Shown here: positions 1 through 56,442 of the stretch, in pieces
Layout: each line of letters starts with the position of its first letter
Position numbering within the stretch: the stretch's first letter is position 1
From: Selaginella moellendorffii
Taxonomy: Eukaryota > Plantae > Lycopodiophyta
Length of the DNA: 64,000 bases
NCBI RefSeq assembly: GCF_000143415.4
Contig: NW_003314310.1
Span: 32,800 to 96,799 of the forward strand
Direction of reading: 5' to 3'
Notes under the pieces: model-generated
The model's database searches: none
Seen by the model: the letters and a program-made list of their open reading frames with translations, nothing else
What the model was told of the DNA's origin: nothing
Made by a program: the position numbers and the translations under genes

Positions 1-585
1 ATGATATCCCAATCATGATCTTTCTTTTGGATTTCGCGTGCATGCAGTCCGAGGAATGATGACGTTGCGGATTTCTTTTGGATTTTGCGTGCTTGCATGC
101 GCGCGGCAATCCAGAAATTAATGGTGGCGCCCAAGTCCGAGGAATGATGACGTGGCGGGATTACCAACCGTTGTGAAATTTCGCGCGTGTGAGGTTAGGT
201 TTTGCATTTTGCTTTGTACTCGCGCTCGCGCTCGCATCACACTCGCGCTCCCGCTCGCATCGCGCTCCCACTCGCGATCACGCTCACTTCTCTACAGGTT
301 TCTCGTGTGCATCGGCGTCCACTCGCGCTTGCATCACACTCGCGCTCGCATCGCGCTCGTGTGCATCGGCGTCCACTTCAAGACACACCCAGTTTGTAAC
401 TTCGCCGCCAACTCCGCCGCCCACTCCACCACCCACACGCAGCCCACTTGGCGTCCCGGGAGATTTCAGCACCACTCTCCAACTGTAAGTGGCAGAGTAG
501 CCTTGCTGCTACGATCCGCTGCACACACAGTGCACATTCGCCAGCGAGTCCGGCCTCGATTGTCACGGCCTCCATTCGGCTTCAA

Positions 586-3500
586 ATGGTAAGTCTTTTA
601 GACCAAGTAGAAAATGGCATGAGGCCACATGCCATTCAGTAGCAACATTGGCATGCACCGATTGGGCTCTCGAGTGCAGTCCGGTTACAGATGGCGTGTA
701 GCCTCACGCCATCTTAGGATGCAGCCTCAAGACATCTGATGCAGTGGTGAATGGCGTGTGGCCTCACGTTATTTCCAGCTGCTAGCTTTTCATCTGTCAG
801 CTCTAATTGTTGTGCATTTTTGAACAGGCGAGGAATTGCGTTCTTCTTCCAGCCACTGTCAATGTGGATGCAGAGAAGGGGGAGGAGCTCACCAGTTGGA
901 CTTTCGGGATGGAAGGCGAGGATCTGATGCTGTACAACACAGATGGTGGGAGAAAAGAATGCATGGGGATCCTCATCCAAGTGACAGACACTCCATGCAG
1001 TTCCATGCAAGAATATGGACTGGCACTTGTGGTATAGACAGCGTCCGCCTTCAAGATCCACCTTGCACATCCTAGCGGCTTCCCGGAGGGGGGCAGCGGC
1101 TATGAGGAATTCCTAGAGGGAGCTAGGGAGAGGTTGTCCAGGAGGCCCACAATTTCAAAGATGCTGCGGGTCTATGAAGATCACATGGAATCCACGGACC
1201 TCACCTACGGCGATGTTCAAAAACTATATTCCAACATTGAGCCATTGAGAGTGCCTCCAGTTTGCGAAGCGAAGGGGAAGGGGGTCGATCTGGAAACTAC
1301 CCCGAAGCAGAAAAGGGTGGTCAAGCTCAAGCCGACGTCCGACTCTGCTGCTCCAAAAAAGAAGCTACTCGGTGATGCCATTGCCTCGGGTTCGAACACT
1401 ACACCCACCAAAAAGAAGAGCCGCAAAGAGCAGAAAGAGCAAGAAGAGGCAGCAAAAATTGTCGCAGATAATAGTACTTGTTACTATTCCAACAAAGTAT
1501 ATACAATCGACGTGAGCCGTATCGAGATCCAAAGCAAATACAACCACAGGCTAGTATCTGATGAGTGGGTGGAGAAACTGAAGCAGAAGATGCTGGCAAG
1601 TCCAGTAACACCCGACATCGCAGACGTGATCCCCTACTACCGAACAATGAAGGGCGAGACGAGGTTTCCAGACTTGATCAATAGGAAGGTGTTGGACGAT
1701 CAGAACATCCGGTTCTATGCCGTCTCCGGGCAGCATTCTAGCTTGGCGATGCAACAGATAGTTGTGGATATTATGGTGGGCGAGGAGGTGAAGAAAGTCT
1801 TCAAGACAAGAGTTGTCCGCCTGATAAAAGGCAACTCGCCCCTCCGATCTATCATATACATCTCCCACGCGCAGAATGTCAAGCAAGAAACGTGCTACAA
1901 ATCGGGTCTGCACGAGACATTGGCACGAACACGGAAGCTCTGGGTTCAACTGAAGAAGCCACAAAAACCAGGACAAGGACGTGCACTAGCAACTAGCGCC
2001 TGGTAGGTAAGCCTCGTTGCATGTGGCATAGCATGTGGCCTCACGCCATTTCCATTGCAGGAATTCTCGAGTCTTCTCTCGAAAACACTGGGGGTCAATG
2101 ACACACTCAGCATCCATAACATTCTACTCGCGATAAAAGTTGTTTTTGACAAATGGGTAGATGTGCTGAGGAGGTACCATGACGGGGAGTTGCTAAACTC
2201 AATGGGTGTGGAGGACGGCCGGAAGCCCAATGATTTGAAGCTCAACGGCTTGCGTTTCTCGCGGTCTCTAGACGACGACGACCTTCTGACAGTGGCTAAT
2301 GCTCTTCTACGTGGTGAGGTAGTCTTCAACAAGACCAAAATGACTCCCGACCATATTGTGACATACGAGGACTTGTGCACGACTCTGAGAGCTCGTGCGC
2401 TATTGAAGGATTGGATCTTCGAGCAAGTGGCCGTGGCGAGGGTGAGCATCGACACCACGCAAGAGATGATGGAAGAGCTGGACTTGTCAAATGAAGACAT
2501 CGACGAGTACGTGAAGGGGGCCCCCAAGTTCATCGATCTGCTGCGGGATGCCACGAAAAGTAAAGCTGAGAAGTTGGATCAGTATCCAAATTTCATTAAG
2601 AGGGATGTCGACCGCCGGCTTCAGAAACAGCTCGACCCCGCAGCAGAGGCCTATCGAGAACCTTACCGGGTATACGTGAATTCGGATGAGGATCAAAGGT
2701 GGAGGAGCATCGTTTCCCGCGGAGATGAGCAGGTCAAGAACATCTTTTGTGTGATGGACTTCACAAACGAGGAGATCACTCATGCAGACGAAGTCAGCTC
2801 CATCATTGACTTAATGGTGGGACTTGCGGAGGTGGAATCTTCAGTCCACTATATGATCTACGACTCCGAATCCTATCACAAGTTCTGGAAGGCCTTGAAC
2901 GAGGTGAAGGCTCGGTTGAAAGGCAAGGAGATGCGGGAGATCCATGGGATAATGGCTAAGAAGAAGATACCGACGAATGTCCGCATCTTCACAGTTGCCC
3001 TTGTTATTGGTCCTGCAGCAGAGTGGGACTGGAGTGACTTCCCAGCTTCGTTCAACAAAGCCGATCGAATTGATCTGAGGGAGGTCAATTTACCCGTGCC
3101 TGAGGAACTGAAGACGGCTATGGAGCTTTCGAATCCAAAGAAAGCTCCAGGTGCAGCATGGGAAATGCTCAGCTGGGTCTTCAACGCAATAGCGGGTGAC
3201 TCCAAGGGCAAATGCGTTGTCGAGTACAACTGCGGCGGACTATTCTTTCGAGCCGCACTACTCAAGGGTGTCCCGTGTGTTGCGGTGACAAACTCCATTG
3301 AAGAGGTGACTTCAATGGAGCATATAATTACAGTTGCCAAAGAAAAACAGTATCTTCTCTACGAACCTGGTGAGTACGCACTTTAAGTTTAAATGTTATC
3401 TCACAAGCTCTGTATGCAGGAGCGTGGCCACCCCCAGATGCTGAAACGGCGTTAACAGCTACTGATGTTAGGCCGAGGTCACAACCTGCACAAGGTAAGG

Positions 3501-6007
3501 TCACGTGAGGCCTCACGCCATTTTGATTATAGATCGTTGTGAATATTCAGACACGAGGACTGAAAAGCGCACTGGTGGCGCGTCGAAGAAGGACAAACAG
3601 ACAAGCAATAGGAAAAAAGGAGGTACAAATTATATTTGCAATGGCGTGTGGTCTCATGCCATTCCTTGCAGGAGACACTTCTTCAAAGGCAAAACAGGCA
3701 AGCACCAGCCAAGCTCAAACTGACAGTGGTCATAAAAAGCGAAAGCACGTTGGACAGTCGTCGGGATCAGAGGCGTTTGATTCAAAAAGGAAGAAGGGCA
3801 ACGAAAAGATGATAGGTAATGCCTCGCGGTTATGGCGTGTGTGCTCATGCCATTCATTGCAGATCAAGGGCTGAGTGAAAGGAGCCAGTCACCACCTTCT
3901 GACTCAGATTCCTATGGCGGACTCCCCTTCCCCAATCTCAATGGAGAGGTACAATGGATGAGGGATGCTTTTCAAGTCAGGGCCACGTTTTTCTCATCTC
4001 GTCGTCTTCGAAGGGTGCAAGAACGTGCAGAAACCATGTTAAGACAGTCGGGTGAGGATACGGTCCTAGGTCACGCACTAAAACAGGCTATGGATGTCTT
4101 GTATTTTGAGATGGAGACTCGGCCAGATGATTTTTCCAAGATGGTCCTGGAAAAACAAGCAATCCAGCCTGAGCAGCCTATGGAAGAAATGCAAGAGGGG
4201 GATGAGGAGCCAGAGAAAGATAATGAGCAGGAAGAGCAGAAGGACGAAGAGGAGGACAAAGAAGAGGAGGACGAAGAAGAGGAGGACGAAGAGGACTTGG
4301 ATGGTCCTCACAATGGTGACGATCACAATAACGACGATGACGATGATGACGATGATGGCCAGCCTGAGGTGGCCAAAGAGCAGCGGAGGAAGGTCATACA
4401 AGACAAACCATCAGGTAAATAATAGTACATCCATTCCTAACCTTTTACCATTTCTAACATTGTCCATGTAGGTCGCAGAAGAAATGGTAAGTAGAGATTA
4501 TTCAGTTGAATTAAGATACAAACTCTAGCCTTTAGTGTCGAGGAAGGATAGTGCCAAGCAAGGGTCGAAACGTATGTCCAATCCTTCAGAATCAGCAGTG
4601 CGCCCAAGTGATATCGGTCCTAGTTCCTCAATAGCAGTTGATGGTAAATACAGTATAGTCGATTCAATGTGCTAATGAGTTTGTTTTTAGTAGCACGGGA
4701 GGATACCATCTTAATCGAAGGGAGATATTTGGACATGCATATGGATCCGCCAGTGGACTCTACTTGCCTGCAAGAGTCATCAGAGCTGGTGGAGGCTACT
4801 ATCCATATCAACGCCAAGCAAGCTGACCACGCTCCACTTGATGCTGCTCATACCACTAAGTCAATCTTGTCCACGTATCCAACTGACGGTGACCAGGCGC
4901 CATTGGACCCGCATGAGGCCGCCCCAGCCGCCGAGCCGGTCGTATCCTCATTTCCAACGTGTGCCCAATCGTCTGACTATGCGCCGTTGGAACCTCCCTA
5001 CACCGCCCCTGCTGCCTGTTCGGTCATGTCCACTTTGCCAACGGAGGCACCAGCTGAAATGGCGTGTGATCACACGCCATCGGAACCACCCCATGCCACT
5101 GTTGAGCCAGTTGTACCAGAGTCTACAGCTGAAATGGCATGTGCCCACACGCCATCGGATGCGATTGACCCCACATTGCAGAGGAGAGTATTTCCGCCCT
5201 TCACGTTTCCTCGACCAAAACCCTCTGAACGACCATCGGGAGCACCATTCGCTAATATTGTAGATGGTAAAATTGACTTGTACCATTTTTTATGCTGACA
5301 CATTTCATTTCAGAGTCACGGCGAAAGTACTGTATCGTTTTTGATCTGAACGGTGTCCTTTTCTCCCATGAGCGTGGCTCGTCCTCGAATGTCACTGCAC
5401 CCTCCAAAGCCTGCGGTCGCAAGTTGGTCAAAAGAGACAGATTCACATTAATCACACGGGAGAAACTGCGGGATCTAATAATGACCATGCGACACTTAAA
5501 ACAGAGGGCCGGGTTCAATTTGCAATTGGGAGTTTGGACATCCATGATGCGCCACAATGCATTAACGTTGCTACAGATGATGCACGATCAGACGCGAGTA
5601 ATATTACCATTTGACTTTCTCCTAACGCAGGAGGATTGCTTGACTATGGTCCATGTGAGGGGTAGCAAGCCCATCTTCGTCAAGGCAGAGGCTGTAGTGA
5701 TGAACCGGACTGCTAGGTCAAGTGAAATCCTCATCATCGATGACTCGCCGATTAAAACTGCAGCGAACACGCACACATATGCAGTGCACCCCATCTCNNN
5801 NNNNNNNNNNNNNNNNNNNNNNNNNNNNNNNNNNNNNNNNNNNNNNNNNNNNNNNNNNNNNNNNNNNNNNNNNNNNNNNNNNNNNNNNNNNNNNNNNCGT
5901 ATTAGAGAAGAGATGGCATTACTATTGGGTTAAATCCTGATAGTGTGGAGAGTGATGAAATTCCAAGATTATTGTATAGGCGTTGGAGGCAAAAAATAAC
6001 AGTCTGA
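586..6007 (+). pseudogene. Multi-exon transposon cargo gene, copy 1: ParB/Srx-like domain + degenerate N6/N4 DNA-MTase-like fold + K/E/P-rich linkers + FCP1/NIF-like HAD phosphatase
   Basis: GT-AG introns at 589-827, 2007-2060, 3370-3419, 3495-3550, 3623-3671, 3816-3862, 4415-4471, 4487-4535, 4644-4690 and 5267-5313 join the ORF pieces in one frame. Premature TAGs at 1035-1037 and 2004-2006 are sense codons in copy 2. Motifs: FYAVSGQHS, IVFDLNGVL, VWTS, IIDDSPIK. The exon chain and the phosphatase call are firmer than the ParB and MTase calls. Confidence 0.75.
5798..5897. other. Assembly gap (100 N)
   Basis: N run; the equivalent segment in copy 2 (55624-55891) is 268 bp. Confidence 0.98.
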
Positions 6008-6414
6008 GATGGCATGTATTTATTTAAAAATGTAACTTATTATGGCATGGGGTTCCATGCCATTGTATTAATATTAAAAGACAATTCTTTGAGAGGATTT
6101 GCATTATACTAGAAGTGTTACAGCATGTTATTGGAAGTCTACGAAGTTGTTTTATTAATAAGGGGAAAGTAAAGATTGAATGGGGACTTGGGCTCCACCT
6201 AGACTCGGAGCAACTGAGCCAATATTAAAAGGATGGAAAGAAATTGGACGACGATGACAAGGAGAAGAGAGAGGTGAAGCAGTGAGAAGTGATTGAGTAG
6301 ACATTTCCTTGTTTAAAATAAAATGGCATGTGCCTCAATGCAGTTGAATTTTGTTATATTTATATACTATATAAAGGTTTGGAAACCTTATTTTACAAGT
6401 GGGATAATGACAAT

Positions 6415-6436
6415 TCCCACTTTAACGAAATAGAGC
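6415..6436 (-). repeat. Right terminal inverted repeat of transposon copy 1
   Basis: TCCCACTTTAACGAAATAGAGC, the reverse complement of 41047-41068. Confidence 0.9.
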
Positions 6437-41046: not shown

Positions 41047-41068
41047 GCTCTATTTCGTTAAAGTGGGA
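41047..41068 (+). repeat. Left terminal inverted repeat
   Basis: GCTCTATTTCGTTAAAGTGGGA. Confidence 0.92.
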
Positions 41069-41703
41069 TTTATTCAGTAAAATGGGACTAGGTACAAATT
41101 TTCAAGTATTTGAAAATGACGTGAAATTATATGTTTTTTGTCCAGGGGCTAGACATATCTGGGGTATGGTGACTAGCGCGGTGACTTTATGTCCAGACTG
41201 AGTCCATCTGGTTGTATAATAAATCTCATTGTCAAGGTGAACAAGCCGAATCTGAAGCTAAAGAAGAGCGATGGCATGCGCGCACACACTATTTGTTTGT
41301 TCATTGAGCGTGTGGTGAGCTTTCCAAGATGAACGTCATTCCTATTAGCCAGACATATCACTTAATGGTGAGAACATTTAGATATTATTCAATGTTATCT
41401 TTTTCTAACGAATCTAATTGTGAAGGTGTAGCAAGAGGCATTGCTAGTCTGGAGAAGTCATTTAACTCATTTGACCCTTAGTGTATTTTCATGAAACTAA
41501 ATAACATTCATATTATTAAAGATTTCTCTAGTACCTTTTTTTTACGACATAGAGGCTTGCATTTCTTTCAAAGGTGATTTAGTAAAAGGCCTGAGGGCAT
41601 ATGCCATTCTATTTCTCAGACCGGTATTAAGATATACTAGTGCAAAGGGAAAAAGGTATTTGGTGATCAAGTAAATGGCATGAGGGCACACGCCATTATA
41701 AGC

Positions 41704-41961
41704 CTAAGCGCTAGTGGACACCTCCTTTTTGGTACTCTCAGCGGTACTATCATCCTTCTCCGGGTCAGTTGTTTTGCTTTGGATTGTTGTCTCTGACGTT
41801 ACTGGGGCGTTTTCGATAGTTGTTAATGTTGCCGTTTGTTCAGAAAAATGATCACCTGGAGTATAGTACGGGGAGTTTGGAAGACTTATATATTCTACAT
41901 CTTCACCTATCTCCTTCTCCATCTCCTTTTCTGCCTCACTTACAGATTTTGTGCTTGCCAT
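41704..41961 (-). CDS. Possible small acidic S/T/E-rich protein (85 aa) downstream of the transposase
   Basis: ATG-started ORF MASTKSVSEAEKEMEKE...STSA with biased composition in otherwise AT-rich DNA; no recognisable domain. Confidence 0.35.
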   Translation of the reverse strand: MASTKSVSEAEKEMEKEIGEDVEYISLPNSPYYTPGDHFSEQTATLTTIENAPVTSETTIQSKTTDPEKDDSTAESTKKEVSTSA

Positions 41962-42168
41962 GAGAACGCTCTTCACCCTAAAATATGGAGTTCGTTGTGT
42001 TATAAAAGGAAACCAACACACACGCTGCAAGGGAATGATGGTACATAAAGCACGTAAGCCCACAATATGGGTTTATGTGCCATTAATATGGGCCACACGC
42101 CATATTATTAGATTTATGCACGTGTGATTGGTAAATGCATATGTCACATCATCTCAGGCCACATGCCA

Positions 42169-45100
42169 TCACGCCTCCTCTGATTCAGATTCGGATTGTT
42201 CACCTTGAAATAAAATACATTAGAAACTTAGTAAAGGAATATTAATGAATCTCACCTTGAACCCGGGTTATGAATGCTCTTGCTGCATCTCTTGCATGGT
42301 CTGGCAAGGTGATGGTGGCACTCTGCTTCCGCATCCAACCATGCACAACATTATCCACCGATATGCTCATGCTGGGATCCCTTGGATTCAGCACCCATCT
42401 CTTTTCTAAGCAATCCTTCGTATATCCGGAACTTGGCTTGAACCACTCCACAGTTACATTGAAGGAATTAGTTTCCGCGTCCTCCTCTGCATCAATGATG
42501 CAGCGCCCCACCCATATCATTTGTTTTTTATTACTGGGTCTGACAAGCACGACCATTCCTTTGCAGACCTATACTGGATTGAATGCTGAATCCGGCTTCT
42601 TGTTCCTCGGCCCACAATAGTGATCCTCCACATCGTTATCTATCACTGCATTTCCAGAGGACATTATTCCGCTACTATCTGGTGCTCTAGGTTCTGGCCA
42701 AAAGGACTCTTCCAATTCTTCATATACAACCGGCCCATTTTGGATAGCAGATATAATCTTCTCCCAGTATTCGAGCAAAGGCTTGCACCTCTGAAAATAG
42801 GATTCTCCACCAAACACCAACCCCCTCTTCCAGAAGGCAATATGCTGTCTAATCCCGGCCACTATACTTTCCTGGTCTTTGAGTCCATCCGGGTGCATCG
42901 GCCGTGGGGAACCCTGAGGAATCATAGGTTCCCCAGTTATGGGATCTCTCTTGAAGAGTTCAATGCCGTCCACTGGCAGCCACACTGTGTCCCATTCTCT
43001 CATCTTGTACCTCATCACTGGAGCACCGTCACACATGCTGAAATGAAACTGAAGAGGCTTGGAGTGGCCAATCAGCGTTTCAGATCCGTCCCTGATGTAG
43101 CCTCTTACAAACCCCTTAAAGTCTGGAACCTCTGTCAGAAGTGCAGCTTCAACAGTGCCTTTGATGCAATTTTGGAATTCATCGTAGAGTTGTGGGAGGG
43201 TGAGGACAGTGGATCGCCGGAGGGACTCTGCCAGGTGACTGAACATGGCATCGACGTCTTCATGAGTGTGCCCAACCATGAGAAAGCCAAGTGTAACCGT
43301 TTCAAATATGCCTTTGGCAACAAGCATCGCCAAATACGCGAAGACGTACATGTTTTTGTTCTCACTGCCAGCATTGTCTGTTTGGAGCAGAAGATGGGGT
43401 GGAAGGCCACATGGGCCGCAAGAACTTCCTTGAGATTCTGCTTCGTTTGGATGAGGCTGTGCATTCACCGGGCGACCAGCCTCGTCGGAATGGCATGAGG
43501 CCTCACGTGATAACCCTACAATCTGACGGCCAACATATTCACTGGGATGGCATGGGGCCCCACGCGATACTGCAAGCCTTTGCTCCTCCTCCAGCTGAAC
43601 CCTGTATGGGGTTCGATCGACAAGGGCCTTATGCAAGGGTTGGCTGTTCAGCTCAGTCTGCGCACTTTGCAGAGACCTTAAGTGTTTTGCTAGGGACGCA
43701 ATCATCATGTTTGCACCCCCGCCACCCCATAGAGGTACAAAGAAGTTCCCATAGTTCTGGGCACCATGCCCATGAGCGATTATGCCAAACAGAGACACAG
43801 GCAGCTGCATGGATGAAGAGATTGCCTTGGGGGCAGGATTGAGTCGAGGTAAGCACGTCTTTTTCTGGTCCATTTTGTCGTGGATGATGCAGAGGTAAGA
43901 GTCAGGTCTCTCCATGGAGAGAATCCTGTTATGATAATATGCAGTCCTGCAGCTTCTCTGCTCGATGTTGTGGTTGAGCCGCCTTCTAACCAACGTCTCT
44001 CGCTCTTGAGCGCTGCAAGAATTCTTCGACAAAGCCATTTTGATAGCAGTGCACTCGTCACACTTTGAAAAGCTGGAGTACTTTCCTATACTCACATCCC
44101 TGAACCTGTTGCTCCACAATCTACTAAATCTAGATTGGCTCAGCTTCCTGTAGCCATTACTCTGGAGTTCCCGATTCACATCTTCCAATATGGCCCCCTT
44201 GGTATACATGGAAGGGAGAACTCGTTGGGTGTCTCGTGTTCCATCTTCCAAGAGGCGGGTTTTATGTGGTTGCTGCTCGCTACATGTCTCGACAAACCTC
44301 TTCAAGATTGCCTCTCCATATACAACATGACCCCTGGTTTTGTGCGTACCGTCGTTCCCATGGACTGCCTGTTGAACCCTTTGTTCCTCGAACTCAGTTT
44401 TGATTCTGTAAAATGTGGTTCGAGGGACTCCATAAATGATTCTCCATGCCTTCATGCAGACCAAACCCCTCTGGAAGACCATGCCCCCCACCTGATGTTC
44501 TGAAGCATCAACAGATGACCGTAATGCCTCATACACAAAATTGCGAGCTGCCTTCCAGGACAATGTCTTGTATCTTGCTCTCTCCTCTTCAATAGCATCC
44601 CAATCAGCATGTTGACAGCACCTCCTCTTGCAACAAGCAACTGTCGAGACCATTCGAACCTCCATCGCCATTTTCTGCCTTTTCGGTTCGTTGCTTAGAT
44701 CCCTTTGGCTGCGCTTTAGGAAGGTGTACTTTCTTTTCCCATGAAGAGATGTTCTGTCATCAGTTGTAGTGGTGTTTGATTGTGAATCCTTCACATTCTC
44801 AAACACTAAGTGCCTCAATTTCCACCGCACAATGCTTCCAATAGTCAGACTGTTTTCTTCTGTGTCAACAACCTCTAAAATCGCAACTCCAATATCATCC
44901 CAGCCCAATTCTTGATTAGCAACCGCATCTCTTGGATCGACAACTGTGGCTAAGCCCTCAGCTACCACCTCCCCCTCGGGGTTGTTTAGAAACACCTTCG
45001 CCTGAATCCATGTAGCACGGTTCTTAAGATCCACGGAGGGAACATGCGTCGCACTTGCGCTGTCCCCAACATCTGCTTTCTTCTGAAGATTTTTCAAGGC

Positions 45101-45310
45101 AACAACAACATTTACCCCGACGACCATCTCTCCTCGTTCAATAGCGACCACATTCCCATCGAAGACAGTCTCTACTGATACAGCAGCATTGCCTTCCCCA
45201 AGCCTTTCACAGTGTATAACAAAGTTCCGATCCATAGACACAAGGGTCCCTTTTGCAACTCTCTTCCCACCATTCAAAATGTAAACCTTTTCCCCAACCC
45301 TGAAGGCCAT
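42169..45310 (-). pseudogene. DUF7869/Sola1-like DDD transposase (~1030 aa) with one premature stop
   Basis: 913-aa ORF with FSKCDEC, IIHDKMDQ, QTDNAGSENKN and VGHTHEDVDAMFS. TAG at 42569-71 reads through in frame to the 42242-42556 ORF. A terminal GT-AG intron at 42255-42204 gives the last exon GEQSESESEEA*. Confidence 0.8.
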
Positions 45311-45462
45311 TCTGAAAGTGCAGAAAAGAAGTTAAGACCATACAAAAAATGATTGGAGAATGGCCTAAATCATAACATACCAAACAACCTCAATAGCATG
45401 AGGCCACATGCCATTATTCAAACATGCTATTGACACCCACGTGAAATTTCGCATTCACAAAA

Positions 45463-45690
45463 TTGGCATGAGCCCTCATGCCATTAGTGGTACCACTAAT
45501 GGCATGAGGCCTCACGCTATCTTTGGCCCCTGCTAGCCTGTTGCTATATTCCTTTTGCCTTGCTGCAACTGTATATATTTTTGTGTGCGTGACTAGTCAC
45601 CCATACAAAAATATATACAATTGCAGCAAGGCAAAAGGAATATGGCAATAGGCTAGCAGGGGCCAAAGATGGCATGAGGCCTCATGCCAT
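45463..45690. repeat. Nested long inverted repeats: 192-bp palindrome 45499-45690 and ~56-bp palindrome 45464-45519
   Basis: Arms read directly; centres GTGACTAGTCAC (45589-45600) and GGTACC (45489-45494). Confidence 0.95.
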
Positions 45691-48600
45691 CTTGATATAC
45701 ACACAGCTGCAGGCAAGTAAAAACATACATGACAATACGCTAGCCATGAAATTGCAAGGGCCCAAGATGGCATGTGGCCTCATGCCATTTCTAAATGTGG
45801 TCCTAAGCCATTCCATGGTGAACATACCAGGAAGCACAAGTGCCGAATATCAAGAGGAAGCGGTAGCCACACCAAAGACAGTGCCGCTCGCAACACCGCA
45901 ACTACTCGTAGCGCCCGCATGTGATCCCGCATCTGATTGTGATGTCCCTTTGCAGTGTCGATGAAAAGGTCAATGCACACCAAACTGTAAAATCTTGGAG
46001 CAAAATAACGGTCGGATCTATGGCAAATGCCTTTAAAACATTGTAAGGCTCGTGTGGTCTCATGTGGTGTCCGATCGAGATGTTTCTTTGCAGGGTCATC
46101 AAGAAAGACATTGTATACCATTCTGTAAAATCTAGTTGCGATCTAACGGTTCGATCTCCAAAAAACTCAAAACAATCTCGCGCGTGTCAGAATATCCTAG
46201 GAATATACTCCTATGTGCCCCTAAAAATGGCATGCAGCCCCACGCCATTCAAGAGATAATGCCAGATGACGCCGAGAATTTTTTGGTGCATTTTTTGGGT
46301 TCAAAATTGCATGAGCCCACACGCTATAAAGTTTATCTTTGCCAAATAGAGAAAAGTTTATCTGTGTCATGTGAGGTAGTTACAATCCTTTGTGCTCGGC
46401 ATCTGCCTCTTGCAGCATTTGCACTGAAAGGGAATTTTTCTCCATTCAGCATTTGGCCCTGAAAATGGCATGCGCCCACACGTCATTCAAGGAATAACGC
46501 CACAGGACGCCTGGATTTTTGGGTTTAAAATGTTTAGGGTTTTTTGGGTTTTTTCAAAATATTTTGGGTCCAACGTTTTTTGGGTTTCTTTGGTTCAAAA
46601 TTGCATGAGCCCACACGCTATAATATTGATTTGAGAGAAAAATAGAAACAAATAGAATTTCTTTATTTAGCTGAACATCTGCCATTTTTGAAAATACAAG
46701 ATGCTTTGGAATATCCAATCATGCATGGTATAAATATAGCGAGGGTATTAAATGATATCCCAATCATGATCTTTCTTTTGGATTTCGCGTGCATGCAGTC
46801 CGAGGAATGATGACGTTGTGGATTTCTTTTGGATTTTGCATGCTTGCATACGCGCGGCAATCCAGAAATTAATGGTGGCGCCCAAGTCCGAGGAATGATG
46901 ACGTGGCGGGATTACCAACCGTTGTGATATTTTGCGCGTGTGAGGTTAGGTTTTGCATTTTGCTTCGTACTCGCGCTCGCACACTCGCGCTCGCGCTCGC
47001 ATCACACTTGCGCTCCCGCTTGCATCGCACTCCCACTCGCGATCACGCTCACTTCTCTACAGGTTTCTCGTGTGCATCGGCATCCACTCGCGCTCGCATC
47101 GCGCTCGTGTGCATCGGCGTCCACTTCAAGACACACCCAGTTTGTAACTTCGCCGCCAACTCCGCCGCCCACTCCGCCACCCACACGCAGCCCACTTGGC
47201 GTCCTGGGAGATTTCAGCGCCACTCTCCAACTGTAAGTGGCAGAGTAGCCTTGCTGCTACGATCCGCTGCACACACAGTGCACATTCACCAGCAAGTCCG
47301 GCCTCGATTGTCACGGCCTCCATTCGGATTCAAATGGTAAGTCTTTTAGGCCAAGTAGAAAATGGCATGAGGCCACATGCCATTCAGTAGCAACATTGGC
47401 ATGCACCGATTGGGCTCTCGAGTGCAGTCTGGTTACAGATGGCGTGTAGCCTCACGCCATCTTAGGATGCAGCCTCAAGACATCTGATGCAGTGGTGAAT
47501 GGCGTGTGGCTTCACATTATTTCCAGCTGCTAGCTTTTCATCTGTCAGCTCTAATTGTTGTGCATTTCTGAACAGGCGAGGAATTGCGTTCTTCTTCCAG
47601 CCACTGTCAATGTGGATGCAGAGAAGGGGGAGGAGCTCACCAGTTGGACTTTCGGGATGGAAGGCGAGGATTTGATGCTGTACAACACAGATGGTGGGAG
47701 AAAAGAATGCATGGGGATCCTCATCTAAGTGACAGACACTCCATGCAGTTCCATGCAAGAATATGGACTGGCACTTGTGGTAGAGACAGTGTCCGCCTTC
47801 AAGATCCACCTTGCACATCCTAGCGGCTTCCCGGAGGGGGGCAGCGGCTATGAGGAATTCCTAGAGGGAGCTAGGGAGAGGTTGTCCAGGAGGCCCACAA
47901 TTTCAAAGATGCTGCGGGTCTATGAAGATCACATGGAATCCACAGACCTCACCTACGGCGATGTTCAAAAACTATAGCCGTTGAGCCATTGAGAGTGCCT
48001 CCAGTTCGCGAAGCGAAGGGGAAGGGGGTCGATCTGGAAACTACCCCGAAGTAGAAAAGGGTGGTCAAGCTCAAGCCGACGTCCGACTCTGCTGCTCCAA
48101 AAAAGAAGCTACTCGGTGATGCCATTGCCTCGGGTTCGAACACTACACCCACCAAAAAGAAGAGCCGCAAAGAGCAGAAAGAGCAAGAAGAGGCAGCAAA
48201 AATCGTCGCAGATAATAGTACTTGTTACTATTCCAACAAAGTATATACAATCAACGTGAGCCATATCGACATCCAAAGTAAATACAACCACAGGCTAGTA
48301 TCTGATGAGTGGGTGGAGAAACTGAAGCAGAAGATGCTGGCAAGTCCAGTAACACCCGACATCGCAGACGTGATCCCCTACTACCAAACAATGAAGGGCA
48401 AGACGAGGTTTCCAAACTGTATCAATAGGAAGGTGTTGGACGATCAGAACATCCGGTTCTATGCCGTCTCCGGGCAGCATTCTAGCTTGGCGATGCAAGA
48501 GATAGTTCTGGATATTATGGTGGGCGAGGAGGTGAAGAAAGTCTTCAAGACAAGAGTTGTCCGCCTGATAAAAGGCAACTCGCCCCTCCGATCTATCATA

Positions 48601-50983
48601 TCCATCTCCCACGCGCAGAATGTCAAGCAAGAAACGTGCTACAAATCGGGTCTGCACGAGACATTGGCACGAACATGGAAGCTCTGGGTTCAACTGAAGA
48701 AGCCACAAAAACCAGGACAAGGACGTGCACTAGCAACTAGCGCCTGGCAGGTAAGCCTCGTTGCATGTGGCATAGCATGTGGCCTCACGCCATTTCCATT
48801 GCAGGAATTCTCGAGTCTTCTCTCGAAAACACTGGGGGTCAATGACACACTCAGCATTCATAACATTCTACTCGCGACAAAAGTTGTTTTTGACAAATGG
48901 GTAGATGTGCTGAGGAGGTACCATGACGGGGAGTTGCTAAACTCAATGGGTGTGGAGGACGGCTGGAAGCCCAATGATTTGAAGCTCAACGCCTTGTGTT
49001 TCTCGCGGTCTCTAGACGACGACGACCTTCTGACAGTGGCTAATGCTCTTCTACGTGGTGAGGTAGTCTTCAACAAGACCAAAATGACTCCCGGCCATAT
49101 TGTGACATACAAGGACTTGTGCACGACTCTGAGAGCTCGTGCGCTATTGAAGGATTGGATCTTCGAGCAAGTGGCCGTGGAGAGGGTGAGCATCGACACC
49201 ACGCAAGAGATGATGGAAGAGCTGGACTTGTCAAATGAAGACATCGACGAGTACGTGAAGGGGGACCCCAAGTTCATCGATCTGCTGCGGGATGCCACGA
49301 AAAGTAAAGCTGAGAAGTTGGATCAGTATCCAAATTTCATTAAGAGGGATGTCGACCGCCGGCTTCAAAAACAGCTCAACCCCGCAGCAGAGGCCTATCG
49401 AGAACCTTACCAGGTATACGTGAATTCGGATGAGGATCAAAGGTGGAGGAGCATCATTTCCCGCGGAGATGAGCAGGTCAAGAACATCTTTTGTGTGATG
49501 GACTTCACAAACGAAGAGATCACTCATGCAGATGAAGTCAGCTCCATCATTGACTTAATGGTGGGACTTGCGGAGGTGGAATCTTCAGTCCACTATATGA
49601 TCTACGACTCCGAATCCTATCACAAGTTCTGGAAGGCCTTGAACGAGGTGAAGGCTCGGTTGAAAGGCAAGGAGATGCGGGAGATCCATGGGATAATGGC
49701 TAAGAAGAAGATACCGACGAATGTCCGCATCTTCACACTCGCCCTTGTTATTGGTCCTGCAGCAGAGTGGGACTGGAGTGACTTCCCAGCTTTGTTCGAC
49801 AAGGCCGATCGAATTGATCTGAGGGAGGTCAATTTACCCGTCCCTGAGGAACTGAAGACGGCTATGGAGCTTTCGAATCCAAAGAAAGCTCCAAGTGCAG
49901 CATGGGAAATGCTCAGCTGGGTCTTCAATGCAATAGCGGGTGACACCAAGGGCAAATGCGTTGTCGAGTACAACTCTGGCGGACTATTCTTTCGAGCCGC
50001 ACTACTCAAGGGTGTCCCGTGTGTTGCGGTGACAAACTCCATTGAAGAGGTGACTTCAATGGAGCATATAATTACAGTTGCCAAAGAAAAACAGTATCTT
50101 CTCTGCGAACCTGGTGAGTACGCACTTTAAGTTTAAATGTTATCTCACAAGCTCTGTATGCAGGAGCGTGGCCACCCCCAGATGCTGAAACGGCGTTAAC
50201 AGCTACTGATGTTAGGCCGAGCTCACAACCTACACAAGGTAAGGTCACGTGAGGCCTCACGCCATTTTGATTATAGATCGTTGTGAATATTCAGACACGA
50301 GGACTGAAAAGCGCACTGGTGGCGCGTCGAAGAAGGAAAAACAGACAAGCAATAGGAAAAAAGGAGGTACAAATTATATTTGCAATGGCGTGTGGTCTCA
50401 TGCCATTCCTTGCAGGAGACACTTCTTCAAAGGCAAAACAGGCAAGCACCAGTCAAGCTCAAACTGACAGTGGTCATAAAAAGCGAAAGCACGTTGGACA
50501 GTCGTCGGGATCAGAGGCATTTGATTCGAAAAGGAAGAAGGGCAACGAAAAGATGATAGGTAATGCCTCGCGGTTATGGCGTGTGTGCTCATGCCATTCA
50601 TTGCAAATCAAGGGCTGAGTGAAAGGAGCCAGTCACCACCTCCTGACTCAGATTCCTATGGCAGACTCCCCTTCCCCAATCTCAATGGAGAGGTACAATG
50701 GATGAGGGATGCTTTTCAAGTCAGGGCCACGTTTTTCTCATCTCGTCGTCTTCGAAGGGTGCAAGAACGTGCAGAAACCATGTTAAGACAGTCGGGTGAG
50801 GATACGGTCCTAGGTCAAGCACTAAAACAGGCTATGGATGTCTTGGCCAAAGAGTCATGCTTAAACCTGGTGTCCACGAGAGGACAACTCACTAAAGGAA
50901 CTAAGGCAGCCTTTTTGTGCTTACTCTCGGTGAAGAGTGACAAAAAGACAAGAACGGAAGAAGTACCTTTAGTGATCCAGTAG

Positions 50984-53908
50984 GTGCTGGACCAATTCCA
51001 GGATACCATGCCAGAGGAGCTACCGGCGGGGTTGCCCCCCGCACGACCGATAGAACATAAGATTGAGCTAGTCGAGGGTGCTGAGGCGGTGGTTCGTCCA
51101 CCCTATCGATTGAACGAAAAAGAACTCAAGGAGCTCAAGAGCCAACTAGAGGAGTTGGTGGACAAAGGGTATGTTAGGTTGAGCAAGTCGCCGTATGGGG
51201 CGCCGGTGCTATTTGTGAAAAAGAAAGATGGATCTATGCGCATGTGCATAGACTACCGGTTGCTCAACAAGTATACCAAGAAGAACAAGTACCCTTTGCC
51301 AAGGCTCGAGGACCTGTTCGATAGGTTGGGAAAGGCAAAATACTTCTCGAGGATTGACCTAAGGTCAGGATACTACCAGATCAGGGTAGCTGAGGAAGAT
51401 GTCGAGAAGACAACCTGTCGAACGAGGTATGGGAGCTTTGAGTTTTTGGTGATGCCCTTTGGGCTGTGCAATGCGCCGGCAACGTTTTCGGCGTTGATGA
51501 ACCACATCTTTGTACCCTATCTGGATCGCTTCGTGGTCGTCTATATTGACGACATCCTGATCTATAGCGAGACGCTAGAGGAGCATGCCGAACACTTGGC
51601 GAAGGTGTTTGAGAAACTAAGGGAACACAAACTGTATGCTAAAGAGAGCAAATGTGACTTTGCTCAACAAGAGGTAAAGTTTCTCGGGCATGTGGTGGGC
51701 CAGGACGGGCTCAAGGTGGACCTGGAGAAGGTCCAAGCGATCCAGGAATGGGAACGACCATCGAATGTACATGAGTTGAGGGCGTTCCTGGGGCTATGCA
51801 ACTACTATCGAAAGTTTATCAGACACTATTCGAGAGTAGCCCTGCCCTTAACGGACCAAACAGGAAAAGGGAAGATGGTATGGACAGCGAAATGCGAGGC
51901 GGCATTCGTCCACCTCAAAGGGAAGTTGAGGAAGGCTCCGGTGTTGGCATTACCAGACTTTGGTAAGGACTTTGAGGTAGACACGGATGCTTCGGACTTT
52001 GCGTTGGGCGCAGTTTTGAAGCAAGACAACCATCCAGTAGCGTTCTTCTCGAAGAAGCTGGACAAGGCTCAACGGAAGTGGCCTGCCCATGAGAAGGAAT
52101 TGTTTGCGGTGGTCAAGGCGCTCAAGGAGTGGCGACACTACCTTGGGAGACACTTCAAGGTTTACATGGACAATGTGGCAACGAAACACTTCTTGTCACA
52201 GCCCGACCTAAGGGGAAAACAAGGTCGGTGGGCCAATGCTTTGGCCGAGTTTGATTGCGAGATCCTGTACAAGCCTGGGAAGAGCAACATCGTGGCAGAT
52301 GCGCTCAGTCGAAAAGCGAGCTTGAAGTTGGCGATATCTAGCGCGACAGCAACCTTTTGGGACGATGTGCGGACCGCATACGAGAGTGATGGTCTAGCAC
52401 AAGAAGTGTTGCTGAGGAATCTGGAGGCGCGGGAAGCTCACCAGAGAGGTGAGCTGCCAACGGAAGAGAAAACGGGCTATGCAGAACGCAACGGACTCAT
52501 ATATTACAAGCAAACGAGGGTGTATGTTCCAGAAGGGGAACTAAGGAAGGTAGCCTTGGAAGAGTGTCATGACGGACCTCTTGCGGGACACGGCGGAGTG
52601 CCCAAGATGATGGGCTTACTCAAAAGGAAGTATTACTGGCCAGATATGGCTAAGGACGTCCAAGACTATGTAAAGACATGTCCAACATGTCAGCAGGTCA
52701 AAGCCGTGACGAAGGCTAGTGGGGGCTTGTTGCAAAGCATCCCCATTCCAGATCGTCCGTGGAAATGTCTCACGATGGACTTCATCACGGGACTACCCCC
52801 AAGCGAGGGGTTCGATGCGATATTCGTGGTGGTGGACCGATTTTCAAAGATGGCGCATTTCATACCCACCACAACGGATGTGGATGCGGAAGGTGTGGCG
52901 AAGCTGTTCTTCGAACAAGTGGTTCGAGTGCGGGGAAGGCCGGAAGAGATTATCTCAGATCGAGATAAGATCTTCACCAGTAGGTTCTAGAGGACACTCC
53001 TAGAACAGTATCGCACCAAGTTGAAATTCAGCACGGCCTATCACCCACAGACAGGTAATGGGTATTGAGTCAAGATTGATGGCACTAACACTTCTTGACA
53101 GACGGACAAACGAAAAGGGTGAATAGGCAGCTGGAGGATTATTTGCGATGCTATGTCTCGGGAGACCAGACTGACTGGGTAAGTCATTTGGGACTTGCAG
53201 AAATGTGTTATAACAACTCACCACATTCGAGCATCGGGGTGAGTCCATGGGAAGTCATCAATGGGCGAGCTATTGAAGGTCCTGTGGAACTCGGCGTGGC
53301 CGAGTATCATGGAGAGTTACCCGCAGTGGAGGCATTCACAGCGGAAAGACTCAACATTTGGAATCTAGTGAGGGATTCCTTGGAACGGGCTCAACAAAGG
53401 CAAACTAAGTACGCGAACCAAAAGTGTCGAGATGTGGAGTTCCAAGCTGGGGAGAAGGTGTGGCTGAACACCAAGAACCTCAGGCTACCAAGTGGGATCA
53501 GCCGGAAGTTGACCCAAAGGTAAAAATGCATGTATTCCTGTAAACGAATTGATCTTGAGTTCCTTAAGCAGGTTCGCGGGGCCTTACGAGATTGAGGCTC
53601 GAATCGGTAAAGTGGCTTACCGTCTCCGACTTCCTCGAGAGATGGGGAAGATGCATCCCGTGTTCCACGTGAACTTACTCAAGCCGTATTTTGAGGATCC
53701 GCTTTGCAAGGACCAAGTAAGACCTTTACCTGAGGTTATCCAAGGGGAGGAGGAATACGAAGTCGAGGCCATCCTCAATGCGCGCAAGAGCAAGCGACAA
53801 GGACGCGAGGTGAGAGAATTCCATGTGAAGTGGAAAGGATTTCCACACTGCGAAGCAACATGGGAACCGGAGGAGAACCTAGCGAACGCGCGAGATCTAG
53901 TGGAGTAA
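50984..53908 (+). pseudogene. pol: Gypsy pol: RT (YIDD), RNase H (TDASD), integrase (HHCC, core), GPY/F, chromodomain; two short introns and at least two premature stops
   Basis: ORFs 50984-52990, 53095-53523 and 53549-53908. Chromodomain YEVEAILN...FHVKWKGF...TWEPEENL. Confidence 0.92.
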
Positions 53909-54450
53909 TTTCTGCATGGCAGAACTCTATGTACTTATGCAAAGTTCAATTAAAAGTATCAATTTGAGAAGTTGAGCAATGGCATATGTTGGGACCCGAA
54001 GGCGCGCCGAAGGTAAGCTAATTAGCATGGGTTAGCTAGGTCGACCAGGCGTAGGGAGCTACGCCCGACTCCCTGTGGGGATGTCGAAACCGTAGACGTA
54101 TTCTACGGAGGTTGGGTTCGAGTCCCGACCCCCTAGTAAAGCAAGGCTGGGTTCAAGTCCCGACCCCATACTAGGGCGTGGTGAGGGGAGGAGTATAGGG
54201 ACACCTATATTCCGTTGTCATGAGCTCTTGGCCGGGGAGGCTAACTTAGGCACACCGCTAAGTGGGGGGATGCCCCCGGAGACATGGTCAACAAGTCGTA
54301 GGATAAAAAAGAGACGTTCGATGTGGGCATCGAACTTCTTCTATGGGTGGTGGAGTTGTAAGGAACCAACTCGCCGAGGTGTCGTAGGCTAAGGGAACCC
54401 CGAAAGCATGACCAAAATGACAAAGAGTTCATCGGATGGGACCAAGTCAA

Positions 54451-54714
54451 AGATCGAGTCCAAGACCGACTCTAGGACCGAGTTCGAGATAGAGTCCGGA
54501 ATCGAGTCCAAGACCGACTCGGGGACCAAGTTCGAGTCCGAGTTCGAGACCGAGTTCGAGACGGAGTCCGAGATCCGAAATCGGGTCCGAGACCGAGTCC
54601 GAAGTCGAGTCCGAGGTCGGGCCCGAGATCGGGTCCGAGATCGAGTCCGCGATCGAGTCCGAGACCGAATCCGAAGTCGGATCCGAAATCGGATCCGAGA
54701 TCGAGCCAGAGACT
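54451..54714. repeat. Tandem array of 6/12-bp units (GATCGAGTCCGA-like) inside the chromovirus LTR
   Basis: Read directly. Confidence 0.9.
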
Positions 54715-56420
54715 AAGTCCAAATACTAATACGGGTCAAGGGGTGAAAGCCCAAAGCGTGCGTCCCCCAGGGGGGGGGGGCTGCAGGGGGTTCCAAAAGT
54801 ATAGTAGGGATAGTGAGGTCCAGGAACCAGTTTTGAAGGGACTCTCCAGTTGGGCTTCCAAACCGACTTGAGGTTGGGACTGGGACTAAGGGGCCTTGGG
54901 TGGGAGTGAACATGGACTTGGCTGGTGCCGGAGGGGCCATCCAAGGAAGTGCTCAAGAGCAGCTCCCACTCCCGAAAGGGAAACCGATTGCGGTGCTCCC
55001 GGCTCATGTGGAGTGGTGCCCCACTTGAGTACCATGCGGCTCATTGGTCCTCGCCCTGCCTAGGGGCTTGGGCCTTCCTTCGGGATGGAAGTGGGGGGCG
55101 AGAGGTACCCATACCGGGCCGTTAGGCCACGGTGTTTCGCCCCGGCGTCCCGAAGCAAGTGTTGCACTCAAGACTTGGGATTTAGAGGGTCCCATGATCA
55201 AGTCTTGTGGTACCAAGGGATGTTAGGAACCTGGAAGCTTGGTGTGCTTGGCTGCTTGTGCTTGCGGGGAGTGTAGCCGAACCTTAAGTCTAGTCTAACC
55301 CGGGGAGGGGGATTGAGAGTGATTTGGGAATCCGTGGAAGGATGGCTAACACTCCGTTGCTCGTGCAGTGAGTAGCTGAAACCAAGTAGGAGCTGGTACC
55401 ATAGGCGAGAACCTTGGCAAGGGAACTTAGCAAAAGCCAAGGCAGTGTTGGACGGATAGACGAGGTAAGCTGGCAAATTGGAAAGGAAAAATTTGTGGCT
55501 TACAGTCAAGCCAGAGGCTGTAGTGATGAACCGGACTGCTAGGTCAAGTGAAATCCTCATCATCGATAACTCGCCGATTAAAACTGCAGCGAACACGCAC
55601 ACATATGCAGTGCACCCCATCTCTTGCAGTATGGAAACTAGGGAGAAGAAACCGTATGTTCTGGGGGACCTTGCAAAACGGCTTGAAGCGATGGTGATAG
55701 AGAACCGGCCAGTCCAGGAGGTGGCTGCAGAAATCAACCAAATGGCAGATGGAACGGTATATCAGAAGCCATTTGATCGGACAGACACCAATTATCATTT
55801 ATGGCATGTATATTGTCTAGCCAAACACTATCCGCATCTCCATAATCTGCTCAACCGGATGGGTTCTTCGACCACTGAACATGAGCGTGGACGTATTAGA
55901 GAAGAGATGGCATTACTATTGGGTTTAAATCCTGATAGTGTGGAGAGTGATGAAATTCCAAGATTATTGTATAGGCATTGGAGGCAAAAAATAACAGTCT
56001 AAGATGGCATGTATTTATTTAAAAATGTAACTTATTATGGCATGGGGTTCCATGCCATTGTATTAATATTAAAAGACAATTCTTTGAGAGGATTTGCATT
56101 ATACTAGAAGTGTTACAGCATGTTATTGGAAGTCTACGAAGTTGTTTTATTAATAAGGGGAAAGTAAAGATTGAATGGGGACTTGGGCTCCACCTAGACT
56201 CGGAGCAACTGAGCCAATATTAAAAGGATGGAAAGAAATTGGACGACGATGACAAGGAGAAGAGAGAGGTGAAGCAATGGCAGGGGGAGGAGAAGTGATT
56301 GAGTAGACATTTCCTTGTTTAAAATAAAATGGCATGTGCCTCAATGCAGTTGAATTTTGTTATATTTATATACTATATAAAGGTTTGGAAACCTTATTTT
56401 ACAAGTGGGATAATGACAAT

Positions 56421-56442
56421 TCCCACTTTAACGAAATAGAGC
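56421..56442 (-). repeat. Right terminal inverted repeat of copy 2
   Basis: TCCCACTTTAACGAAATAGAGC. Confidence 0.92.

What the first reader, a model, noticed from the sequence alone, without database searches (positions are those of the whole stretch)
614..6344. 22-bp palindrome ATGGCRTG-N6-CAYGCCAT dispersed through the element, many copies inside tiny introns
Copy-1 sites start at 614, 691, 751, 2028, 3500, 3641, 3832, 5059, 5134, 6042 and 6323 (degenerate). Four 47-56-nt introns (2007-2060, 3495-3550, 3623-3671, 3816-3862) are each about 40% palindrome, in three cases ending ~10 nt before the acceptor AG. Intron 1 holds three copies. The 8-bp arms and 6-bp spacer length are constant while spacer and flanks vary. 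That fits a dimeric-protein operator under selection better than tandem amplification. An alternative is RNA stem-loops regulating splicing.
Basis: seen in the sequence. Interest (0 to 1): 0.88.

Follow-up and report, generated by a model that had tools for sequence, protein, structure and literature searches.

The report
Transposon studded with its own palindromes
A plant jumping gene carries about 26 copies of one 22-letter palindrome, mostly in predicted introns and other non-coding stretches and nowhere else in this window; they are likely docking sites for a predicted ParB-like protein made by the element itself, and in its smallest introns they likely double as the splicing branch point.

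Summary
The palindrome is real: 28 matches against 0.09 expected. All 35 profile hits lie in two copies of a ~12-kb Sola1-like DNA transposon, none in 46.8 kb outside. The transposase lies head-to-head with a predicted 11-exon gene (ParB-like region, degenerate methyltransferase-like region, FCP1-like phosphatase).

Correction: the spacer is not free. The motif is ATGGCRTGWGSSCWCAYGCCAT. Its halves vary independently, which fits a double-stranded DNA dyad better than an RNA stem.

Sites avoid coding DNA (4 of 25, against 64% coding). In three tiny introns the site's CTCAY is the only branch-like motif, at the usual branch distance. Distant relatives carry different, family-specific palindromes, one inside a transposase intron.

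Best reading (0.6): binding sites for the element's own ParB-like protein, as VANC binds VANDAL motifs. Binding, splicing and the ParB fold are untested or inconclusive.

ParB accessory genes are published for algal transposons, with adjacent inverted repeats in a red alga. This scan has already noted the design in likely fern genomes. New here: element-wide dispersal, branch-point overlap and a methylase lacking its catalytic motif.

The parts
1..6436 (.). Copy 1 of the Sola1-like element: right half, cut by the window start
   Evidence: 97% identical to 46752-50845 and 55892-56444; right terminal repeat ends at 6436
41047..56442 (.). Copy 2 of the element, with both ends. A gypsy-type LTR retrotransposon at about 50846-55500 replaces part of gene B
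   Evidence: contigs of runs X3 and X20 continue at 50845 with copy-1 sequence
41047..41068 (+). Left terminal inverted repeat, 22 bp
   Evidence: 22 of 22 identical to both right ends; other flanks join here in run X3
6415..6436 (-). Right terminal inverted repeat, copy 1
56421..56442 (-). Right terminal inverted repeat, copy 2
42256..45311 (-). DUF7869 / Sola1-like transposase, main exon (one in-frame stop at 42569-42571 in this copy)
   Evidence: PF25273 E=9.7e-42; 11 homologs; motifs match the Sola1 profile consensus by eye; frame continues past the stop
45312..45827 (-). Predicted first intron of the transposase gene, holding 5 sites (45393, 45463, 45499, 45669, 45767) and a 192-bp inverted duplication (45499-45690)
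   Evidence: GT..AG ends; inverted repeat I18; sites
586..5999 (+). Gene B, predicted 11 exons: ParB-like region (about 1500-1960), helical region, degenerate amino-methyltransferase-like region (about 2650-3369), acidic low-complexity linker, FCP1/NIF-like phosphatase domain (from 5314)
   Evidence: (PF03031 E=2.2e-6); the end is inferred from copy 2 across the N gap
589..827 (+). Gene B intron 1 with three sites (614, 691, 751)
2007..2060 (+). 54-nt intron with site 2028; the site's CTCAC has its A 17 nt from the intron end
   Evidence: homolog P0026 lacks the intron-encoded residues, and P0028 and P0032 stop at this position
3495..3550 (+). 56-nt intron with site 3500. An in-frame alternative acceptor at 3532 would give 38 nt and put the site 11 nt from the end
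3623..3671 (+). 49-nt intron with site 3641; CTCAT with A 15 nt from the end
3816..3862 (+). 47-nt intron with site 3832; CTCAT with A 15 nt from the end
5059..5155 (.). Two exonic sites (5059, 5134) in a 75-bp repeat within the low-complexity linker
6042..6344 (.). Two sites downstream of gene B (6042; degenerate 6323)
41271..42169 (.). Four sites downstream of the transposase (41271, 41586, 41675; weak 42148)
43490..43568 (.). Two sites inside the transposase coding sequence, in its least conserved insert (residues 588-614)
   Evidence: identity to homologs about 0.1 there, against 0.33-0.55 in the flanking core
46227..46621 (.). Four sites between the two genes (46227, 46306, 46465, 46600), two tandem-duplicated pairs
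47362..56350 (.). Nine copy-2 counterparts of copy-1 sites (47362, 47439, 47499, 48772, 50244, 50385, 50576, 56037, 56329)

Best explanation
The 22-bp palindromes lie only inside a Sola1-like DNA transposon in this window and are likely double-stranded DNA binding sites for a predicted dimeric ParB-like protein encoded by the element's own second gene, which would coat its own family's copies and likely keep them active. Steps: (1) Shown: the sites are confined to the element and avoid constrained coding DNA. (2) Shown in sequence: new sites arise by local direct and inverted duplication. (3) Inferred: selection keeps the protein-contacted positions and lets 3, 6, 9 and 11 (and their mirror positions) drift. 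(4) Inferred: a 47-54-nt intron can hold a 22-bp site only by overlapping a splice signal, so the CTCAY of the right arm serves as the branch point; this explains the fixed 9-11-nt distance to the acceptor. (5) Inferred, by analogy with VANC/VANDAL: the bound protein counters host silencing or drives the two head-to-head genes. As this family lacks the methylase catalytic motif, it would act by binding, or through its FCP1-like domain, not by writing 4mC or 6mA.
For: Confinement: 35 profile hits at 10 bits or more, all inside the two copies; the best score among 46,814 outside positions is 3.6 bits (the profile was trained on 25 inside sites). Dyad behaviour: Watson-Crick pairing at all 11 mirror positions is at or near the independence expectation (e.g. 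6/17: 11 observed, 10.8 expected, Fisher p=1). The central S-S and G10/C13 are symmetric, although a hairpin loop could not pair its centre. C5 is C in 49 of 50 half-sites while R6 is A in 28 and G in 21. Placement: 4 of 25 sites are coding against 64% coding DNA (p=1e-6); 7 of 9 gene-B sites are in introns that make up 13% of the gene (p=1.6e-5). Both transposase-coding sites are in its least conserved insert. Branch overlap: in introns 2007, 3623 and 3816 the site's CTCAY is the only yTnAy 8-45 nt from the end, with A at -17, -15, -15. Four of the five site-free tiny introns have a yTnAy A at -14 to -16. Relatives: 16 of 80 transposase loci have 4 or more copies of a recurrent spaced palindrome, against 0 of 80 shuffles and at most 3 in four window controls. 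The motif differs between families. In L011 one site lies in a 125-nt intron that restores the transposase frame. Three loci (L049, L050, L052) carry weak remnants of a gene-B-like ParB region on the opposite strand upstream of the transposase. Gene B's N-terminal part scores 0.97 against DUF3723 clusters in the ESM Atlas. Precedents.
Against: No binding data exist. The ParB label is by eye: no ParB-family Pfam, NCBIfam, PHROG or PADLOC hit, and the profile comparison with five bacterial ParB-family proteins gave E=0.076. The CTP-binding GxxR motif reads SGQH here. Sites are not independent (duplication, possible conversion), so the p-values overstate. The 80 loci are redundant and include tandem arrays. 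A contig of run X3 joins 46120 to 46659 at a depth like its neighbours, so some copies lack the four intergenic sites. Only 3 of 80 related loci showed a gene-B remnant (E 1.7e-4 to 0.03), though many are short. The excess of T14 in small introns is not significant (4 of 4 against 9 of 17, p=0.12). Five of nine tiny introns have no site.
Confidence: 0.6

Rival explanations
1. The sites are bound by the transposase (like subterminal repeats of CACTA or hAT elements) to assemble the transpososome or to autoregulate.
For: Sites occur near both ends (41271-41696; 6042-6344). Family-specific palindromes accompany the transposase in many related loci where no gene-B remnant was found.
Against: Twelve of 26 sites cluster between 45393 and 47520, around the two gene starts, 4-6 kb from either end. 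The terminal repeat does not contain the motif.
Confidence: 0.15
2. The copies work as RNA hairpins that hide the branch point and acceptor and so gate splicing of the element's genes.
For: Predicted folds of introns 3623 and 3816 pair the arms and extend over the acceptor (-14.5 and -16.2 kcal/mol). The putative branch A lies in the stem.
Against: No covariation between the halves. In the predicted sense direction there are 13 G-U, 8 A-C and 8 other mismatches over 21 sites (p=0.19). Site 2028 has two A-C mismatches. Many sites are intergenic, downstream or exonic. The loop positions are symmetric and conserved.
Confidence: 0.1
3. The motif is a neutral, self-copying micro-repeat spread inside the element by hairpin-driven template switching and conversion, tolerated only where it does no harm.
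For: Direct and inverted local duplications, including a 192-bp palindrome bounded by two sites. A joint from 45466 to 45683 between two sites in run X1. Three introns share 3' ends. Avoidance of conserved coding DNA is expected under this model too.
Against: Divergence is position-specific and symmetric rather than uniform: one C5 change in 50 half-sites against a free R6. In 4 of the 12 pairs compared, chosen as clear local duplicates, the core is 54/56 identical, variable positions 25/32 and flanks 81/120 (the core was defined from these same sites). The motif never occurs outside the element in the window.
Confidence: 0.1
4. The sites recruit a host transcription factor that switches the element on in a particular tissue.
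For: The sites cluster around the two gene starts. One degenerate site (3500) contains a G-box hexamer (sequence).
Against: Related families use unrelated palindromes, which fits co-evolution with an element protein better than a conserved host factor. A 22-bp dyad with about 14 constrained positions is long for a plant factor (general knowledge).
Confidence: 0.05

Closest known systems
Sola1-1_Ec32 of Ectocarpus (PMC12477816; abstract, passages and supplement rows read)
   Same: Sola1 element with a second gene on the strand opposite the transposase, encoding a ParB-like plus amino-methyltransferase protein that the authors propose binds and modifies its own element.
   Different: Brown alga, 21.5 kb, 282-bp imperfect terminal repeats. 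No 'palindrom' hit in its main text. Here: land plant, 22-bp terminal repeats, no methylase catalytic motif, a C-terminal FCP1-like domain, and about 26 dispersed sites.
PAG3 of Bostrychia Plavaka elements (bioRxiv 10.1101/2025.02.11.637652; one passage read)
   Same: Transposon accessory protein with a ParB-like N-terminus, and inverted-repeat arrays proposed as its binding sites.
   Different: Plavaka transposase, 2OG-oxygenase effector domain, and tandem arrays adjacent to the gene, rather than sites scattered through introns, exons and both ends.
VANC / VANDAL anti-silencing system of Arabidopsis (PMC5735166; passages read)
   Same: An element-encoded protein binds a family-specific motif that accumulates by local repeat formation in introns, intergenic and terminal regions, and differs between related families.
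   Different: The VANC motif is 8-9 bp and not palindromic, with binding and demethylation shown by experiment. VANDALs are Mutator-like (recalled). No homology to gene B was found, and function here is untested.
Bacterial ParB-parS (recalled; five ParB-family proteins compared)
   Same: Palindromic sites in several copies, and a protein region with the ParB/Srx pattern by eye.
   Different: The GxxR CTP motif is replaced by SGQH, no ParA partner is seen, and the profile match is not significant.

Membership tests
Sola1 DNA transposons | DDD transposase matching the Sola1 RNase H profile | tested here: met
   By eye against the published HMM consensus (PMC5751038 supplement parts 55, 56, 58, 59): fDlqk..lPrln, gRgsneias.l and DncagqNkn correspond to MDQKKTCLPRLN, GGGANMMIASL and DNAGSENKN. 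The HMM itself was not run; its middle and last parts were not read.
Sola1 DNA transposons | Terminal inverted repeats | tested here: met
   22-bp perfect repeat at 41047, 6436 and 56442
Sola1 DNA transposons | 4-bp target-site duplication (4 bp for Sola1-1_Ec32) | tested here: inconclusive
   Copy 2 flanks read GAAT and TTAT, with no clean duplication; copy 1 has only one end in the window
Ectocarpus-type ParB-methyltransferase accessory gene | Second gene on the strand opposite the transposase | tested here: met
   Head-to-head layout
Ectocarpus-type ParB-methyltransferase accessory gene | ParB-like domain | tested here: inconclusive
   Pattern by eye and conserved GQH in P0028, P0029, P0032; Atlas DUF3723 0.97; hhalign E=0.076; model pLDDT under 50 in this region
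Ectocarpus-type ParB-methyltransferase accessory gene | Amino-methyltransferase with an intact (D/N/S)PP(Y/F/W) catalytic motif | tested here: not met
   No such motif in the gene-B translation up to the N gap. The SAM-motif-like position reads EYNCGG. The methylase-like label itself is only a lead (Atlas 0.80-0.86; not significant).
VANC / VANDAL | Family-specific motif enriched in introns, intergenic and terminal regions | tested here: met
VANC / VANDAL | Mutator-type transposase | tested here: not met
   The transposase is DUF7869, with no MULE hit
VANC / VANDAL | Protein binds the motif and causes loss of DNA methylation | not testable with these tools
   Needs EMSA, ChIP or DAP-seq and methylomes
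Introner-like mobile introns | The whole intron is a repeated mobile unit inserted at new sites | tested here: not met
   The introns differ in their 5' parts, one has the site near its donor, most sites are outside small introns, and the 2007 intron position appears shared with distant homologs
Known structured RNA family | Rfam match at the gathering score | tested here: not met
   0 matches in 1-6500

The most novel reading that the evidence does not exclude
A land-plant Sola transposon has turned its ParB-methylase accessory protein into a catalytically dead reader fused to an FCP1-like phosphatase, and has built that protein's binding site into the branch points of its own gene's tiny introns. 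One 22-mer would then be both a DNA docking site and a splicing signal, letting the protein control production of its own mRNA while it works through the host.
Probability: 0.15. Interest if true: 0.8.

Novelty: new variant of a known kind. Interest (0 to 1): 0.52.

Why it matters
It gives a precise, testable target sequence (a 22-bp dyad with a clear information profile) for a class of transposon accessory proteins whose binding has so far only been proposed. If the protein binds these sites, seed-free plants have a second, independently built, sequence-specific self-recognition system beside VANC. A short site paired with its own protein could be a tool for protecting transgenes from silencing. 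The overlap with branch points would show how a binding site can colonise introns too small to hold it otherwise.

Tried and rejected
Genome and runs: No whole genome is held, so genome-wide enrichment, copy number and target-site duplications could not be measured. No RNA holder was listed. No laid contig showed a GT..AG joint at a predicted intron among the joints shown. Run X20, only guessed to be RNA, keeps introns 589, 3816 and 5267 and may be DNA, so this says nothing on splicing.

Protein searches: Word-index searches for gene B found nothing. The representative search gave 8 hits, of which I dropped 2 (P0027, P0031) as repeat-driven. Six gene-B homologs, the gene-B stretch and the FCP1 exon found nothing in the 80 loci by tblastn.

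Structure: Both models were poor (pLDDT 33.7 and 53.3). The fold searches gave only generic alpha/beta matches to residues 400-537 (best Z 8.2, rmsd 3.1, 120 aligned). No ParB or methyltransferase stood out, which excludes neither. The PDB sequence search was empty. The homodimer prediction gave no answer.

Motif elsewhere: It was absent from viral contigs and had 2 single hits in bacterial genomes, about what chance gives (my estimate). This family's exact motif is not repeated in any of the 80 related loci (one hit each in L020 and L021).

Ideas rejected: Introner-like elements; an independent MITE (no copies outside the element, no target duplication seen by eye); a known RNA family.

Literature: The original Sola paper is not held. 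Searches listed no paper describing such sites in a land-plant Sola element; I saw listings only for most. Preprint supplements are closed and could bear on the Bostrychia arrays.
Full report
1. Observation. With up to 2 mismatches there are 28 matches in the window, against 0.09 expected. Only the 6-bp spacing is populated. A symmetrised profile trained on 25 sites finds 35 hits at 10 bits or more: 11 in 1-6436 and 24 in 41047-56442 outside its retrotransposon insert. The best of 46,814 outside positions scores 3.6 bits. Without the nine copy-2 counterparts there are 26 distinct sites.

2. The element. Positions 1-4101 and 5898-6438 are 97% identical to 46752-50845 and 55892-56444. A 22-bp perfect terminal inverted repeat lies at 41047 and ends at 6436 and 56442, giving an element of about 12 kb. 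Copy 2 has a gypsy-type retrotransposon in place of part of gene B. The minus strand encodes a DUF7869 protein (E=9.7e-42) with 11 homologs at 28-97% identity. Its motifs match the published Sola1 profile consensus by eye (PMC5751038 supplement parts 55, 56, 58, 59). No clean target duplication is visible. Public runs of one organism cover the whole stretch, with tens of thousands of variant contigs in two runs and full cover even in a 3-Mb assembly. I infer a high-copy family; the tool gives no copy number. Telomere-like letters of the plant type appear at one joint. Earlier unreviewed notes on this genome call it a spikemoss; I did not test that.

3. Gene B. Ten GT..AG introns give one frame of 1,505 codons up to the N gap, with two stops. 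All four laid runs read another letter at both, so the family gene is likely intact and this copy damaged. The C-terminal exon matches the NIF/FCP1 phosphatase family (E=2.2e-6). The N-terminal part has six usable distant homologs among 8 hits. It shows a ParB/Srx-like pattern by eye, with SGQH where ParB has GxxR (motif recalled; visible), and scores 0.97 against DUF3723 clusters, a family that appears in the Starship literature (listing only). The profile comparison with five bacterial ParB-family proteins is not significant (E=0.076), and the family libraries give nothing relevant. The middle region resembles an amino-methyltransferase only weakly and has no (D/N/S)PP(Y/F/W) motif. Homologs support the intron at 2007: one lacks the intron-encoded residues and two end at that point.

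4. What the motif looks like. The consensus is ATGGCRTG-W-G-S-S-C-W-CAYGCCAT. Positions 10 and 13 are G and C in 23 of 25 sites, so the spacer is not free. Positions 3, 6, 9 and 11 and their mirrors vary. The two halves vary independently at every mirror pair (6/17: AC 11, AT 7, GC 4, GT 2; Fisher p=1). C5 is kept in 49 of 50 half-sites although its neighbour is G in 21 and A in 28; plain CpG decay would hit both. In the predicted sense direction of 21 sites the mismatches are 13 G-U, 8 A-C and 8 other (p=0.19). This is the profile of a double-stranded dyad read half by half, not of a selected RNA stem. The sites are related by duplication, so these p-values overstate.

5. Where the sites sit. 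Four of 25 are coding, against 64% coding DNA; 7 of 9 gene-B sites are in introns that form 13% of the gene. The four coding sites are in the transposase's least conserved insert and in gene B's low-complexity linker. Twelve of 26 cluster in the two first introns and between the genes. Many arose locally: tandem pairs at 46227/46465, 46306/46600 and 5059/5134, and an inverted pair at 45499/45669. In these 4 of 12 pairs compared, the core is 54/56, variable positions 25/32 and flanks 81/120 identical (partly circular). So amplification and selection both apply. Loose ends at 3710-3713 in runs X3 and X4 suggest that other copies have a further segment ending in a site-bearing acceptor, lost from both window copies. 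Against strict need, a contig of X3 lacks the 538 bp that hold the four intergenic sites.

6. Why about 10 nt before the AG. The right arm contains CTCAY when position 14 is T, which fits the yUnAy branch consensus (recalled). In introns 2007, 3623 and 3816 it is the only such motif 8-45 nt from the end, with A at -17, -15 and -15. Four of the five site-free tiny introns have theirs at -14 to -16 and one has none. Intron 3495 fits too if the in-frame acceptor at 3532 is used. All four small-intron sites have T14, against 9 of 17 other sites (p=0.12). I infer that the site doubles as the branch point. No splice junction was observed.

7. Relatives. Eighty loci encoding related transposases were fetched. 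None repeats this family's motif. However, 16 of 80 carry 4 or more copies of some spaced palindrome, against 0 of 80 shuffles and at most 3 in four control stretches of the window. The motifs differ between loci and occur upstream, downstream and inside the transposase gene. In L011 one lies in a 125-nt intron that restores the frame. The loci are redundant and several are tandem arrays. Weak gene-B-like remnants lie on the opposite strand in 3 of 80 loci.

8. Mechanism. Most likely (0.6), the gene-B protein binds these dyads across its own family and keeps the element expressed or unsilenced. Sites spread by local duplication and persist where they cost nothing, or where they can replace a branch point. 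Confinement, symmetry, placement and family specificity are shown. The binder, the dimer, splicing and the outcome are inferred. Rivals: transposase sites (0.15), splicing hairpins (0.1), neutral micro-repeat (0.1), host-factor sites (0.05).

9. What is known. A Sola1 element with an opposite-strand ParB-methyltransferase gene is described in Ectocarpus (PMC12477816; abstract, passages, supplement rows). Inverted-repeat arrays beside a ParB-like accessory gene are described in Bostrychia (one passage). ParB-fused methylases of algae are reviewed in PMC4738411 (passages). VANC proteins bind family-specific motifs in introns and other non-coding parts of VANDAL elements (PMC5735166; passages). 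This scan has already noted Sola-ParB-methylase elements with palindrome arrays, mostly in likely fern genomes, as unreviewed notes. My searches listed no paper on such sites in land-plant Sola elements. The finding works like VANC/VANDAL, is probably a relative of the Ectocarpus type, and fails the intact-methylase test.

10. Verdict. A real feature and a new variant of a known kind. Interest 0.52: the design has precedent, but the well-defined site, its spread through the whole element and its overlap with branch points make the proposed self-binding directly testable.

Noticed in passing
window 484-521 (copy 2: 47232-47269): Contigs unrelated to the element share this 38-bp stretch upstream of gene B in runs X3, X4 and X20. 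From recall it resembles the 3' end of the plant large-subunit rRNA; an Rfam scan of 400-620 did not confirm that.
   Followed up: partly
window 45499-45690: A 192-bp inverted duplication (96-bp arms, 93% complementary, no spacer) bounded by two sites. Run X1 has a joint that skips 45467-45682, from one site to another.
   Followed up: partly
window 46121-46658: A deletion variant lacking these 538 bp and four sites is assembled in run X3 and also seen in X1 and X2.
   Followed up: partly
window 3710-3715: Both window copies seem to lack a segment present in other copies, whose end looks like another site-bearing intron (loose ends).
   Followed up: partly
window 3370-5313: All eight predicted introns downstream of the methylase-like exon are phase 1, so the linker exons could be duplicated or skipped in frame.
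   Followed up: no
window 50846-55500: A gypsy-type retrotransposon with reverse transcriptase, integrase and chromodomain-like frames, two short interruptions in the integrase region near 53050-53100 and 53520-53570, and a 12-bp tandem array at 54451-54713. Earlier notes describe intron-bearing chromoviruses in this genome.
   Followed up: no
window 218-352: Low-complexity CG-rich repeats (17-23-bp units) upstream of gene B that vary in length between copies.
   Followed up: no
L013:4465-5160, L040:5490-6380, L021:2574-3180, L019:20716-21440: Tandem arrays of palindrome-containing units (about 46-60-bp period) near related transposases; L040 also has scattered copies downstream.
   Followed up: partly
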